DNA from: a phage
DNA length: 64,000 nt
Strand: one strand, 5' to 3'
NCBI GenBank assembly: GCA_025830695.1
Contig: GCA_025830695.1_4111.2
In this document: piece after piece, positions 17,639-18,107 of the stretch
Layout of the letters: each line of letters begins with the position of its first letter
How positions within the stretch are numbered: the stretch's first letter is position 1
Program-made: the position numbers and the translations under genes
The notes under the pieces: model-generated
Told to the model about the DNA's origin: nothing
The model's database searches: none
The model's input: the letters and a program-made list of their open reading frames with translations, nothing else

Positions 17639-17666
17639 TTGATCAATTTGCGTAAAGTAGTATAAT
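17639..17666 (+). promoter_or_regulatory. promoter with ca. 180-nt untranslated leader ahead of TraR-like gene
   Basis: TTGATC 17639-17644, 16 bp, TATAAT 17661-17666. Confidence 0.5.
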
Positions 17667-17849
17667 TCTATGCAGTTGGTTAGACGAAAGGTTATGATTA
17701 GTAGTGCAAGTGTATAAAAATTTTCATGGTGTATCGTTTCGCACATATGGGGATGAATATGTGGTATCATGTGGATTGGAAAAAGTAAGAACAAGTAATA
17801 TTATTGTCGCATTACAGTACTATAGTATTTTTATAATGAGGTTAAAATA

Positions 17850-18107
17850 ATGGCAGTAGGATACGCGAAAGACGGGGCCGAACAAGACGAGATCAACGCA
17901 GTGATTCAGGCCGCCGTTAACCACGCTAGAAAGCAAATTAACGCACAAATAGAATCACTGATACATTGCCTCGACTGCGGCGATATAATCCCTGAGAAAC
18001 GACGCCAGGCCGTTAAGGGATGTAAGTACTGCATAACTTGCCAGGAGGATCATGATAGTACTTTTAAACGTCCCCCGCGTAATTGTTGGCATAGATCTAT
18101 GAGATAA
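17850..18107 (+). CDS. TraR/DksA-family C4 zinc-finger protein
   Basis: C-x2-C-G-x-x-I-P-x-x-R-R...C-x2-C-x-x-C-Q (HCLDCGDIIPEKRRQAVKGCKYCITCQ). Confidence 0.6.
   Translation: MAVGYAKDGAEQDEINAVIQAAVNHARKQINAQIESLIHCLDCGDIIPEKRRQAVKGCKYCITCQEDHDSTFKRPPRNCWHRSMR

What the first reader, a model, noticed from the sequence alone, without database searches (positions are those of the whole stretch)
17639..18107. TraR/DksA-like zinc-finger protein behind a 180-nt leader
The 85-aa product has the four-cysteine pattern and I-P-x-x-R-R typical of TraR/DksA proteins, which bind the RNA polymerase secondary channel. The best promoter (17639-17666) lies about 180 nt upstream, leaving a long leader with several tiny upstream ORFs, so expression may be regulated post-transcriptionally.
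Basis: partly seen in the sequence, partly recalled or inferred. Interest (0 to 1): 0.5.

Follow-up and report, generated by a model that had tools for sequence, protein, structure and literature searches.

The report
Phage TraR/YbiI-like zinc-finger gene pair
A jumbo E. coli phage carries a small zinc-finger protein of the TraR/DksA family, already annotated in relatives, which probably reprograms host RNA polymerase; the supposed 180-nt leader in front of it is a second small gene.

Summary
The 85-aa ORF (17850-18107) is real and belongs to the TraR/DksA C4 zinc-finger family (Pfam 41.3 bits against a cut-off of 24.9). Its closest solved relative is E. coli YbiI, and its model superposes on TraR bound to RNA polymerase. 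It keeps the IPExRR motif that TraR uses to bind RNA polymerase but lacks the canonical DxxDxA tip, and it has its own invariant tail. Relatives of this phage (Asteriusvirus, 121Q gp294) already annotate it as DksA-like, and about 970 phage records carry homologues.

The "180-nt leader" is not a leader. It holds a conserved 48-aa gene (17704-17850, GTG start) whose stop overlaps the zinc-finger ATG (TAATG). That gene has dN/dS of about 0.3, a confident predicted fold, and remote homologues in other RaK2-like jumbo phages. The tiny uORFs are not conserved, the RNA folds no better than shuffles, and nothing matches Rfam.

Any control looks transcriptional. A stronger promoter with a conserved leader motif lies upstream. 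The locus sits in the ~21-kb terminal repeat, among early genes. This is an ordinary family member; the regulatory anatomy around it is undescribed.

The parts
17523..17551 (+). Upstream promoter P1: TTGACA-17-CATAAT with TG (extended -10). The predicted start is near A17558.
   Evidence: 11 of 12 matches, TG present. Identical in all 7 aligned phages.
17557..17613 (+). Conserved early-transcript leader element. It comprises 'CAT' at about +1, hairpin GACG(17563-66)/CGTC(17571-74), the invariant box CCCATAGGGTGC (17580-91), then N5-TGTA.
   Evidence: Six copies in the window. About 35 copies, almost all on RaK2-like jumbo-phage contigs of 345-378 kb, each directly behind a promoter. The hairpin is present in 18 of 26 copies with 15 different stems. 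No Rfam match.
17614..17628 (.). Palindrome O1: GATCAA-AAA-ATGATC (candidate operator).
   Evidence: The same GATCAA-N3-ATGATC lies directly after the box in the 121Q clade and in Erwinia phage Hallingskeid.
17630..17644 (.). Palindrome O2: GATCAA-TAC-TTGATC, a perfect inverted repeat. Its right half is the -35 hexamer of P3.
   Evidence: O1 and O2 are the only exact matches to the pattern in 64 kb. A perfect GATCAA-N3-TTGATC also lies at or just after the second promoter in the 121Q clade and in Hallingskeid. This is the only place in the window with 4 GATC in 60 nt, although GATC is depleted overall (130 observed, 200 expected).
17639..17666 (+). The predicted start is about 17673.
   Evidence: 10 of 12. 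The -10 block GTATAATTCT and GATCAATTT at -35 are kept inside a stretch that is otherwise only 62% identical between clades. The -35 is weaker (TGGATC) in the 121Q clade.
17704..17850 (+). orf48: a 48-aa protein gene with GTG start (TTG in the sister clade). Its stop TAA overlaps the next ATG (TAATG).
   Evidence: phrog_38664 E 7e-36. Annotated as 121Q gp293. dN/dS 0.28-0.36 at dS 0.73-0.88, with no indel or stop, and the other two frames closed. AF2 pLDDT 87.9: four-strand beta-meander plus helix. Structural relatives in RaK2-like phages. Remote homologues in CBB and Hallingskeid.
17838..17841 (+). Shine-Dalgarno GAGG for the zinc-finger gene, 8 nt before the ATG, inside the 3' end of orf48.
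   Evidence: Read from the sequence. It lies in a block (17797-17849) that is 96-100% identical to the window in every aligned relative.
17850..18107 (+). 85-aa TraR/DksA-family (YbiI-like) C4 zinc-finger protein.
   Evidence: dN/dS 0.12-0.28. Annotated 'DksA-like zinc-finger protein' in 121Q gp294 and others.
17967..18041 (+). Zinc-finger core C40-x2-C43-x17-C61-x2-C64, including I47-P48-E49-x-R51-R52.
   Evidence: pattern scan. C40, C43, I47, R51, R52, C61 and C64 are invariant in 30 homologues and in an alignment with TraR, lambda Orf73 and VP882 TraR.
18114..18141 (+). Context: the next early promoter (12/12), serving the GNAT acetyltransferase gene 18171-18527. No terminator lies between the two genes.

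Best explanation
The window comes from an Asteriusvirus (121Q/PBECO4-type jumbo coliphage). The locus lies in the ~21-kb direct terminal repeat, in a run of small genes that each have a host-type sigma70 promoter, so they are probably early genes.

The feature is a two-gene unit. orf48 (17704-17850) encodes a 48-aa beta-meander-plus-helix protein of unknown function. The 85-aa gene (17850-18107) encodes a YbiI-like member of the TraR/DksA family. It has its own Shine-Dalgarno sequence but no promoter of its own, and it starts on the stop codon of orf48 (TAATG).

Both genes are probably transcribed from P3 (17639-17666), and probably also from the stronger upstream P1 (17523-17551).

The most likely mechanism for the 85-aa protein is TraR-like. 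Its N-terminal helix enters the secondary channel of host RNA polymerase. The zinc-finger domain docks on the beta-prime rim helices through the IPExRR motif. Binding then changes the kinetics of transcription initiation, for example by inhibiting rRNA and ribosomal-protein promoters, without needing ppGpp. This would shift host polymerase towards phage needs early in infection.

Control of the unit most likely acts on transcription, through the two 15-bp GATC-containing palindromes O1 and O2 that overlap P3. These could bind a dimeric repressor (possibly orf48 itself) and/or respond to Dam methylation.

Shown here: the genes, family membership, fold, conservation, operon geometry and the palindromes. 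Inferred: RNA polymerase binding, the effect on promoters, early timing, and the operator function.
For: Identity of the phage and annotation:
- The region is 99.2% identical to Escherichia phage CRJP21 and 88-93% to the 121Q clade. The gene is annotated as DksA-like in several of these records.

Family and fold:
- PF01258 scores 41.3 bits against a cut-off of 24.9.
- E. coli YbiI (2KGO) matches at E 1.7e-12 over residues 1-74; TraR matches at E 1.2e-5.
- The AF2 model has helix 7-30, a zinc-finger domain and helix 62-71. It superposes on TraR in the RNA polymerase complex 6N57_M at TM 0.58/0.66 and 2.6 A over 67 columns.

Residues needed for polymerase contact:
- In TraR, P45, E46, R48 and R49 contact the rim helices and beta-prime Si3 (PMC9239242, PMC6970531). 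They align with P48, E49, R51 and R52 here. R51 and R52 are invariant, and P48 and E49 nearly so, in 30 homologues.

Functional precedent:
- All five phage TraR homologues tested bound RNA polymerase and complemented a dksA deletion (PMC9239242).
- YbiI was reported to rescue dksA-deletion auxotrophy when over-expressed, as data not shown (PMC2613031).

Host polymerase dependence:
- The area has dense sigma70 consensus promoters, 37 found against 18.7 expected, including six 12/12 sites.
- This phage group encodes sigma factors rather than its own polymerase (PMC11895373, PMC5259590).

Terminal-repeat position; PMC13070987.

orf48 is a real gene.

Operon geometry and palindromes.
Against: - The canonical DxxDxA tip, critical for TraR and DksA function, is absent. 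The family-wide N-terminus is M-A-x-G-[FYW]-A-K-D-G-A-x-Q. Only D8-x-A10 can be lined up with TraR D6-x-A8, and that needs a one-residue shift from the MAFFT alignment.
- The protein scores below the NCBIfam cut-offs for YbiI (81.4 against 96), for the TraR subfamily TIGR02419 (52.5 against 59.7) and for TraR itself (30.1 against 108).
- The C-terminal helix is shorter than in TraR. It is followed by an invariant non-helical tail, FKRxPRNCWHRSMR, with no counterpart in TraR.
- Model confidence is moderate (pLDDT 69) and low at both ends.
- YbiI has no established function, and the authors who tested it guessed at a role in iron metabolism (PMC2613031).
- There is no expression or binding evidence for this phage.
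- The spacing between the conserved AAAGG and the GTG/TTG start of orf48 is long (about 12 nt).
Confidence: 0.55

Rival explanations
1. One reading: the 85-aa gene is expressed from a monocistronic mRNA with a 180-nt untranslated leader, and its uORFs or structure control translation.
For: A promoter-like site lies at 17639-17666 and no other good sigma70 site lies closer to the ATG. Short ORFs exist in the interval.
Against: - The interval encodes a 48-aa protein under purifying selection. Only that frame is open in both clades.
- The short ORFs are interrupted in the 121Q clade.
- The minimum free energy is -28.3 kcal/mol against -33.8 +/- 3.5 for shuffles, z = +1.57.
- Rfam gives no match, even at E <= 1.
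Confidence: 0.05
2. The protein has the TraR/DksA fold but does not act as a TraR-type initiation regulator. It might merely occupy the secondary channel and exclude DksA or Gre factors. Its longer N-terminus might block the active site. Or, like some C4 zinc-finger 'DksA homologues', it might not act on RNA polymerase at all (for example metal-related or nucleic-acid binding, as guessed for YbiI).
For: - There is no canonical DxxDxA.
[quoted passage not shown] - The YbiI branch is functionally uncharacterised (PMC2613031; the literature search found nothing more).
Against: - The IPExRR rim-helix motif and the overall TraR architecture are conserved.
- P2 Orf82 and X. bovienii Gp34 have imperfect DxxDxA motifs yet still bound RNA polymerase and complemented a dksA deletion (PMC9239242).
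- YbiI was reported to rescue a dksA deletion when over-expressed (PMC2613031).
Confidence: 0.3
3. orf48 and the zinc-finger protein act as a complex, in the manner of QisA-TraR of vibriophage VP882. There, the upstream co-transcribed, overlapping gene product binds the TraR homologue and strongly enhances growth arrest.
For: - The TAATG overlap favours equimolar, co-localised synthesis.
- The 3' end of orf48 and its junction with the zinc-finger gene are nearly invariant.
- There is a precedent in VP882 (bioRxiv 10.64898/2026.07.27.740977), where gp60 overlaps traR in the same way.
Against: - orf48 homologues in CBB and Hallingskeid precede unrelated genes.
- The closest zinc-finger homologues, in T4-like phages, follow unrelated upstream genes, e.g. 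MobD.3 in JS10.
- orf48 shows no similarity to QisA, which is about 200 aa.
Confidence: 0.12
4. The GATC cluster is not a repressor operator. It is a Dam/SeqA-sensing device: the methylation state of the incoming or replicating DNA sets P3 activity, because the -35 hexamer itself contains GATC.
For: - There are four GATC in 32 nt, in a genome where GATC is depleted.
- The pairs are spaced GATC-N7-GATC, one helical turn centre to centre, in three lineages.
- GATC lies inside the -35 hexamer.
Against: - Conservation extends beyond GATC to the full half-site GATCAA/TTGATC, arranged as 15-bp palindromes. That is more typical of a sequence-specific dimer.
- The phage's own methylation status is unknown.
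Confidence: 0.2

Closest known systems
E. coli YbiI (PDB 2KGO; NCBIfam NF008243/PRK11019)
   Same: It is the best sequence match, E 1.7e-12 over residues 1-74 with 41% identity in the fold alignment. The two share the N-terminal signature M-A-x-G-[FWY]-A-x-D-x-A, the same spacing to the C4 finger, IPxxRR, and a similar length (85 against 88 aa).
   Different: The phage protein scores below the equivalog cut-off, 81.4 against 96 bits. The YbiI tail GYNRRGSKDSQLR is replaced by FKRxPRNCWHRSMR, which is invariant in the phage branch. That branch also often has an extra cysteine, C58. YbiI is chromosomal and sits in an iron-related operon (PMC2613031), whereas this gene is a phage early-region gene.
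F-plasmid TraR and phage TraR homologues (lambda Orf73, P2 Orf82, VP882 Orf61)
   Same: It has the same three-part architecture: an N-terminal helix, a C4 zinc-finger globular domain and a C-terminal helix. The model superposes on TraR bound to RNA polymerase. P, E, R and R of the rim-helix/Si3 contact motif are conserved. Like these homologues it is carried by a mobile element or phage and has no DksA-type coiled coil.
   Different: There is no DxxDxA at the tip, and the N-terminus is three residues longer. The C-terminal helix is shorter and followed by a conserved tail. The protein scores below the TIGR02419 and TraR cut-offs. It is encoded by large virulent phages (jumbo and T4-like) rather than temperate phages or plasmids.
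DksA
   Same: Both carry the Pfam PF01258 C4 zinc-finger domain, and both are presumed to target the RNA polymerase secondary channel.
   Different: DksA is 151 aa with a long coiled coil, and its tip carries DxxDxA. It needs ppGpp. This protein has only a single N-terminal helix and scores 13.8 bits against a cut-off of 105 on the DksA model.
QisA-TraR module of vibriophage VP882
   Same: A TraR-family gene lies immediately downstream of, and overlaps, a co-transcribed gene of unknown function (bioRxiv 10.64898/2026.07.27.740977).
   Different: The upstream partner is unrelated in size and sequence. The partnership is not conserved in relatives of either gene here.
Promoter-early stem-loop cassettes (PeSLs) of T4-type phages (recalled from Arbiol et al. 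2010, not checked here)
   Same: Early promoters are embedded in a stem-loop and repeated as cassettes between small early genes.
   Different: Here the cassette carries an additional conserved transcribed leader (variable hairpin plus the CCCAYAGGGUGC box). It appears largely specific to RaK2-like jumbo phages.

Membership tests
Pfam PF01258 zf-dskA_traR (TraR/DksA C4 zinc finger) | Profile score above the curated gathering threshold | tested here: met
   41.3 bits against 24.9, E 1.5e-10, residues 39-68 on profile positions 5-34 of 36.
Pfam PF01258 zf-dskA_traR (TraR/DksA C4 zinc finger) | Four cysteines as C-x2-C-x17-C-x2-C | tested here: met
   C40, C43, C61 and C64. All four are invariant in 30 homologues and in the alignment with TraR, lambda Orf73 and VP882 TraR.
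TraR-type RNA polymerase secondary-channel regulators (as defined functionally in PMC9239242 and PMC6970531) | N-terminal helix carrying the DxxDxA motif | tested here: not met
   A helix is predicted at 7-30, but the N-terminus is MAVGYAKDGAEQD. MAFFT places TraR D3 and D6 opposite V3 and G9. Only D8-x-A10 can mimic D6-x-A8, and that needs a one-residue shift. The family consensus is MAxG[FYW]AKDGAxQ.
TraR-type RNA polymerase secondary-channel regulators (as defined functionally in PMC9239242 and PMC6970531) | Globular-domain residues that contact the rim helices and beta-prime Si3 (TraR P45, E46, R48, R49) | tested here: met
   P48, E49, R51 and R52 align with them. R51 and R52 are invariant, and P48 and E49 are at least 90% conserved. 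TraR K50 corresponds to Q53, which is not conserved.
TraR-type RNA polymerase secondary-channel regulators (as defined functionally in PMC9239242 and PMC6970531) | C-terminal helix that contacts the beta lobe-Si1 | tested here: inconclusive
   A helix is predicted at 62-71, shorter than TraR 58-73. It is followed by a low-confidence but sequence-invariant tail. No complex model could be built.
TraR-type RNA polymerase secondary-channel regulators (as defined functionally in PMC9239242 and PMC6970531) | Direct binding to RNA polymerase and ppGpp-independent change of initiation at rRNA and amino-acid promoters | not testable with these tools
   This needs biochemistry. The only indirect support is the fold match to TraR in complex and published tests on other homologues.
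NCBIfam TIGR02419 (phage/conjugal plasmid C4 zinc finger, TraR family) | Score above the curated cut-off | tested here: not met
   52.5 bits against 59.7.
YbiI (NCBIfam NF008243, equivalog) | Score above the equivalog cut-off | tested here: not met
   81.4 bits against 96, E 4.8e-23. It is the best-scoring model.
YbiI (NCBIfam NF008243, equivalog) | Shared N-terminal signature and conserved C-terminal tail GYNRRGSKDSQLR | tested here: inconclusive
   The N-terminal signature is shared. The tail is replaced by PRNCWHRSMR in the phage branch, and only R82 and R85 are common to both. A Klebsiella RaK2-like phage keeps the bacterial-type tail.
DksA proper | About 150 aa with an N-terminal coiled coil; profile match | tested here: not met
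   The protein is 85 aa with a single helix. NF033459 scores 13.8 bits against 105.

The most novel reading that the evidence does not exclude
The phage YbiI-like branch may not be a plain TraR mimic. It has an FxxDxA-type tip that is three residues longer than TraR's, plus an invariant PRNCWHRSMR tail. It could be a distinct effector of host RNA polymerase, or of another host machine. In this reading it is made stoichiometrically with a translationally coupled 48-aa beta-meander partner, from a promoter gated by two GATC-palindrome operators. That would make it a self-regulated two-protein host-takeover module. It would sit behind a previously undescribed cis-acting leader RNA (the CCCAYAGGGUGC box) that marks a subset of early transcripts in RaK2-like jumbo phages.
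Probability: 0.12. Interest if true: 0.6.

Novelty: new member of a known kind. Interest (0 to 1): 0.3.

Why it matters
TraR-family proteins let plasmids and temperate phages retune host RNA polymerase without ppGpp. This locus shows that the YbiI-like branch sits in the early region of the terminal repeat of a virulent jumbo phage. The same protein, tail included, is shared with T4-like phages, so the strategy is probably used for lytic takeover too. It also gives a tractable handle on the function of E. coli YbiI, which is unknown. By itself this is an incremental homology-level assignment that public annotations already carry.

The more useful outcomes are corrective and contextual:
- The 'leader' is a real small gene.
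- The promoter carries a conserved pair of palindromic GATC operators.
- RaK2-like jumbo phages have an undescribed conserved leader element behind some of their early promoters.

All three can be tested directly by RNA-seq, gel shifts and reporter assays.

Tried and rejected
- Structured or known RNA in the leader. Rfam found nothing on the whole window at gathering scores or on 17500-17900 at E <= 1. RNA folding of 17673-17870 gave z = +1.57. Rejected.
- Conserved uORFs. The other two forward frames carry stops in the 121Q clade. Rejected.
- Antisense gene 17576-17794, called by PHANOTATE in SHEFM2K and JP4. It has 5-6 stops in the 121Q clade. Rejected as spurious. The 29-aa truncated call of orf48 (GTG at 17761) is also rejected, because that codon is GTA in the sister clade.
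- An internal promoter for the zinc-finger gene inside orf48. TATAAT at 17832-17837 has no acceptable -35 at 16-18 nt, and its start site would fall after the Shine-Dalgarno sequence. Judged unlikely.
- A second zinc site using C58, C79 and H81. C58 is V in several homologues. Not required.
- Defence or anti-defence assignment. PADLOC gave no hits for the three genes.
- orf48 homologues in 5.8 billion proteins. Only the two Asteriusvirus clusters were found. The PDB fold search found nothing significant.
- A scan of viral contigs with TNGATCAANNAATGATC was too unspecific, giving 120 or more chance loci. It was uninformative.
- RNAalifold on six box copies gave only an invariant G-U-rich hairpin with no covariation. 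The upstream variable hairpin had to be shown by per-copy folding.
- Literature search for YbiI function, and for the box sequence, found nothing beyond one remark from 2009.
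Full report
**Origin of the window**

The stretch 17300-18600 is 99.2% identical to Escherichia phage vB_EcoM_CRJP21. It is 88-93% identical to the 121Q clade. These are jumbo coliphages of about 350 kb in the genus Asteriusvirus (taxonomy).

In records that include both genome ends the stretch occurs twice. In vB_Ec-M-J it lies at 12.3 kb inside the annotated direct terminal repeat 1..21525. A 20,993-bp terminal repeat was confirmed by restriction digests for fEgEco12 (PMC13070987).

The neighbourhood is a run of small same-strand ORFs, most with their own sigma70-type promoter. The scan found 37 promoter-like sites against 18.7 expected, including six perfect 12/12 sites. 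This is the layout of an early, host-polymerase-read region. Early timing is an inference. The comparable region of phage CBB was interpreted the same way (PMC5259590).

**The observation**

The ORF 17850..18107 (+) encodes 85 aa: MAVGYAKDGAEQDEINAVIQAAVNHARKQINAQIESLIHCLDCGDIIPEKRRQAVKGCKYCITCQEDHDSTFKRPPRNCWHRSMR.

- It has C40-x2-C43-x17-C61-x2-C64 and I47-P48-E49-K50-R51-R52.
- TTGATC-16-TATAAT sits at 17639-17666.

Two things were missed. A better, fully conserved promoter lies at 17523-17551 (TTGACA-17-CATAAT with TG). And a 48-aa ORF with a GTG start (17704..17850) fills most of the supposed leader.

**The protein: which family**

| Model or structure | Result |
|---|---|
| Pfam PF01258 | 41.3 bits (cut-off 24.9), E 1.5e-10 |
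| PHROG 54 'DksA-like zinc-finger protein' | E 1.1e-18 |
| NCBIfam YbiI model NF008243 | 81.4 bits (cut-off 96), best model |
| NCBIfam TraR subfamily TIGR02419 | 52.5 bits (cut-off 59.7) |
| NCBIfam TraR NF010268 | 30.1 bits (cut-off 108) |
| NCBIfam DksA NF033459 | 13.8 bits (cut-off 105) |
| PDB E. coli YbiI (2KGO) | E 1.7e-12 over residues 1-74 |
| PDB TraR (5W1S, 6N57) | E 1.2e-5 |

An AlphaFold2 model built on 30 homologues has pLDDT 69. It shows helix 7-30, a zinc-finger domain, a short helix at 49-54, helix 62-71 and a disordered tail. Foldseek ranks YbiI first. TraR in the RNA polymerase complex 6N57_M comes next, at TM 0.58/0.66 and 2.6 A over 67 columns.

The protein is therefore a bona fide TraR/DksA-family member on the YbiI-like branch. 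It is not DksA, and it is not an equivalog of TraR or YbiI.

**Which functional determinants are kept**

Published work defines three elements of TraR (PMC9239242, PMC6970531):
- an N-terminal helix whose DxxDxA tip reaches the active site;
- a globular C4 domain that binds the beta-prime rim helices and Si3 through P45, E46, R48, R49 and K50;
- a C-terminal helix that contacts the beta lobe-Si1.

In an alignment with TraR, lambda Orf73, VP882 TraR and YbiI, the four cysteines, I47, R51, R52 and G57 are invariant. P48 and E49 match TraR P45 and E46. So the rim-helix motif is intact.

The tip is not. TraR, Orf73 and VP882 TraR start M-[SA]-D-x-x-D-x-A. This protein and all 30 homologues start M-A-x-G-[FYW]-A-K-D-G-A-x-Q, three residues longer, with invariant G4, G9 and Q12. 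Only D8-x-A10 can be matched to D6-x-A8, and only with a one-residue shift.

The C-terminal helix is shorter than in TraR. It is followed by FKRxPRNCWHRSMR, which is invariant in the phage branch. Bacterial YbiI has GYNRRGSKDSQLR instead. One Klebsiella RaK2-like phage carries the bacterial-type tail.

Imperfect DxxDxA motifs lowered but did not abolish activity in P2 Orf82 and Gp34 (PMC9239242). YbiI rescued dksA-deletion auxotrophy when over-expressed, reported as data not shown (PMC2613031). Taken together, I rate RNA polymerase secondary-channel binding with TraR-like consequences as the most likely mechanism, at about 0.55. A different mode of action is a serious rival, at about 0.3.

**Distribution and prior knowledge**

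tblastn finds homologues in 973 phage records. Those at 64-72% identity, with the same tail, are in T4-like phages of Escherichia, Klebsiella, Citrobacter and Yersinia. Examples are JS10, Moon and kv_tblp5.

Many records already label the gene 'DksA-like zinc-finger protein' or 'TraR/DksA C4-type zinc finger protein', including 121Q gp294. The assignment is therefore already public at the annotation level. I found no experimental work on this branch.

**The 'leader' is a gene**

ORF 17704..17850 ends in TAA, and that stop overlaps the ATG of the zinc-finger gene (TAATG). It matches phrog_38664 end to end and is annotated as 121Q gp293. Annotation alone proves little, so I tested it.

- Between the two Asteriusvirus clades, the block 17614-17796 is only 60-63% identical at the DNA level, while the flanks are 96% identical.
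- Even so, the ORF has no indel or stop in any of six relatives, and it starts at the same codon (GTG here, TTG there).
- Differences concentrate at third codon positions, for example 10/7/19 by position. dN/dS is 0.28-0.36 at dS 0.73-0.88.
- With only three sequences, AlphaFold2 gives pLDDT 87.9: a four-strand beta-meander followed by a helix.
- BFVD holds structural relatives among small uncharacterised proteins of other RaK2-like jumbo phages. These include Erwinia phage pEa_SNUABM_47 (TM 0.89, 30% identity) and RaK2 H6X4E3 (TM 0.78). The PDB has no match.
- Remote sequence homologues of the same size exist in Pectobacterium phage CBB, unannotated and also in the terminal repeat, and in Erwinia phage Hallingskeid. 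The pairwise BLASTP E-values are 4e-10 and 2e-12.

The interval also shows no sign of being a regulatory RNA: the fold z-score is +1.57 and Rfam gives no hit.

The zinc-finger gene has its own Shine-Dalgarno sequence (GAGG at 17838-17841, 8 nt before the ATG). It lies inside a stretch of orf48 that is 96-100% identical in all relatives. No acceptable promoter lies closer than P3. The two genes therefore form one transcription unit, probably with translational coupling.

The same TAATGGC junction joins the JS10 homologue to an unrelated upstream gene, MobD.3. So the coupling is a habit of the zinc-finger gene rather than evidence of a fixed partner. A functional complex like QisA-TraR of VP882 (bioRxiv 10.64898/2026.07.27.740977) is possible but unsupported, and I rate it at about 0.12.

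**Upstream control region**

Reading 5' to 3', the region contains:
- P1 at 17523-17551;
- a conserved element at 17557-17613;
- two adjacent 15-bp palindromes, O1 GATCAA-AAA-ATGATC (17614-17628) and O2 GATCAA-TAC-TTGATC (17630-17644);
- P3, whose -35 hexamer is the right half of O2;
- a conserved AAAGG, then orf48.

GATC is depleted in the window (130 observed, about 200 expected). This is the only place with four GATC in 60 nt. The exact palindrome pattern occurs nowhere else in the 64 kb.

In the 121Q clade the surrounding DNA has diverged to 62% identity. Yet O1 is kept directly after the conserved element, and a perfect O2 (GATCAA-ATC-TTGATC) sits just downstream of the -10.

In Erwinia phage Hallingskeid the orf48 homologue is only about 36% identical. 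It is nevertheless preceded by the same order of parts: a stem-loop promoter, the conserved element, O1 (GATCAA-GAA-ATGATC), and a second promoter (TTGACT-17-AATAAT) overlapped by a perfect O2 (GATCAA-TAA-TTGATC). CBB lacks the palindromes.

Palindromes kept across genera while the surrounding sequence changes, and always overlapping a core promoter, are what an operator looks like. The binding protein is unknown. orf48 itself is the obvious candidate because the sites travel with it. Dam/SeqA sensitivity is an alternative or additional reading. This is inference only. It does suggest that control of the unit is transcriptional, not leader-mediated.

**The conserved leader element (side finding)**

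The motif CCCAYAGGGTGC occurs six times on the + strand of the window, allowing up to two mismatches to the probe CCCATAGGGTGCA (8 matches on both strands against 0.55 expected). Each copy lies about 25-35 nt after a strong promoter.

A scan of IMG/VR with CCCAYAGGGTGCN5TGTA returned 24 loci. Most are on contigs of 345-378 kb whose lengths equal those I recall for RaK2, GAP32, CBB, 121Q and fHe-Yen9-04 (the CBB and 121Q lengths match). Four loci are unrelated chance hits.

Across 26 distinct copies:
- the transcript would begin near a conserved 'CAT';
- in 18 copies a short hairpin follows, built from 15 different stem sequences (for example UGAG/CUCA, GACG/CGUC, GGAG/CUCC, AGACA/UGUCU), with an A/G-rich loop;
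- the invariant box and UGUAUCUAU come next.

The changing stem with a kept structure argues for an RNA-level role. The invariant box cannot be tested by covariation. I found no Rfam family and no paper containing the sequence in context. What it does (stability, antitermination, protein binding, or a short RNA) is open.

One copy lies between P1 and O1. Transcripts from P1 would therefore carry it in front of orf48 and the zinc-finger gene.

**Verdict**

The protein identification is right, but it is ordinary and already annotated. The mechanistic claim is plausible but rests on homology to a branch that nobody has tested and that lacks the canonical tip motif. The leader hypothesis is wrong. 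The anatomy around the gene (a coupled small gene, operator-like palindromes, and a leader element found almost only in RaK2-like jumbo phages) is undescribed and cheaply testable, which lifts the interest a little above that of a routine annotation.

Noticed in passing
window 9945, 15895, 17580, 19587, 22587, 24849 (+ strand; each with about 30 nt upstream and 30 nt downstream); also L007 3053, L008 2351 and 3856, L138-L161: A conserved leader element sits behind some early promoters. It has 'CAT' at about +1, a hairpin with variable sequence, the invariant box CCCAYAGGGTGC, then N5-TGTATCTAT. About 35 copies were found, nearly all in RaK2-like jumbo phages (RaK2, GAP32, CBB, 121Q, fHe-Yen9-04). 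It matches no Rfam family and appears in no paper found.
   Followed up: partly
window 17614-17628 and 17630-17644: Two adjacent 15-bp palindromes with GATCAA half-sites overlap the -35 of the promoter at 17639. They form the densest GATC cluster in a GATC-depleted 64 kb. The same pair lies upstream of orf48 homologues in the 121Q clade and in Erwinia phage Hallingskeid, which suggests an operator or a Dam-sensitive switch.
   Followed up: partly
window 15833-15868, 19530-19565, about 22528-22565, about 24790-24830: Some early promoters have the -35 TTGAC inside a G+C-rich stem-loop (AAAGGGATTGACTCCGGTCAGTCCCTTT) followed by a TATTAT -10. They resemble the promoter-early stem-loop cassettes of T4-type phages. 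The terminator scan flagged two of them.
   Followed up: partly
window 16408, 17000, 18114, 18803, 19773, 20113: Six perfect TTGACA-16-TATAAT promoters were found. The copy read in full (18114) has the spacer GTACTGAAAGATAGTG, and the core GTACTG recurs in other early promoter spacers. AGTACT palindromes also recur between the tandem promoters of other cassettes.
   Followed up: no
window 17614-17796: This 183-nt patch is only 60-63% identical between the two Asteriusvirus clades, while both flanks are 96% identical. It covers the operators, P3 and the first two thirds of orf48. It looks like an allele exchange or fast divergence confined to this module.
   Followed up: partly
window 10001-10013 (- strand match) with 9945-9957: One copy of the box has an inverted partner 43 nt downstream on the same strand (GCACCCGGTGGG), giving a potential 12-bp long-range stem. 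A GAP32 copy (L161) shows the same arrangement.
   Followed up: no
window 17576-17794 (- strand) and 17761-17850 (+): PHANOTATE-based records (SHEFM2K, JP4) annotate an antisense 64-aa ORF and a truncated 29-aa version of orf48. Both calls conflict with the 121Q clade, through stop codons and GTA in place of GTG, and look like annotation artefacts.
   Followed up: yes
L004 (phage CMSTMSU) 2046-2300: The zinc-finger gene of the UNVERIFIED record CMSTMSU has four single-base gaps that break the frame. These are most likely sequencing errors, not a pseudogene.
   Followed up: partly
window 18171-18527: A GNAT-family acetyltransferase gene (Pfam Acetyltransf_1, E 4e-9) lies directly downstream with its own 12/12 promoter. 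It is conserved next to the zinc-finger gene across Asteriusvirus.
   Followed up: no
window 25065-25142 (+): This is the only other stretch in the window with a C-x2-C-x(15-19)-C-x2-C pattern (CFICIHRRSGSGSRILNHYRTDCKRC). It was not examined.
   Followed up: no
Hit H77 (phage TH58) and phrog_25948: Only the last 26 residues of the protein (the invariant tail) match in T4-like phage TH58, and a separate 54-aa PHROG covers just this part. This suggests split or disrupted copies of the gene in some T4-like genomes.
   Followed up: no
window 16793-16972 and 17704-17850: The neighbouring 59-aa ORF (…QKGMYVVSYGDYVRE…) shares a 'G-x-YVVS-x-G' strand-turn-strand pattern with orf48. They may be distant paralogues among the small early proteins.
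   Followed up: no
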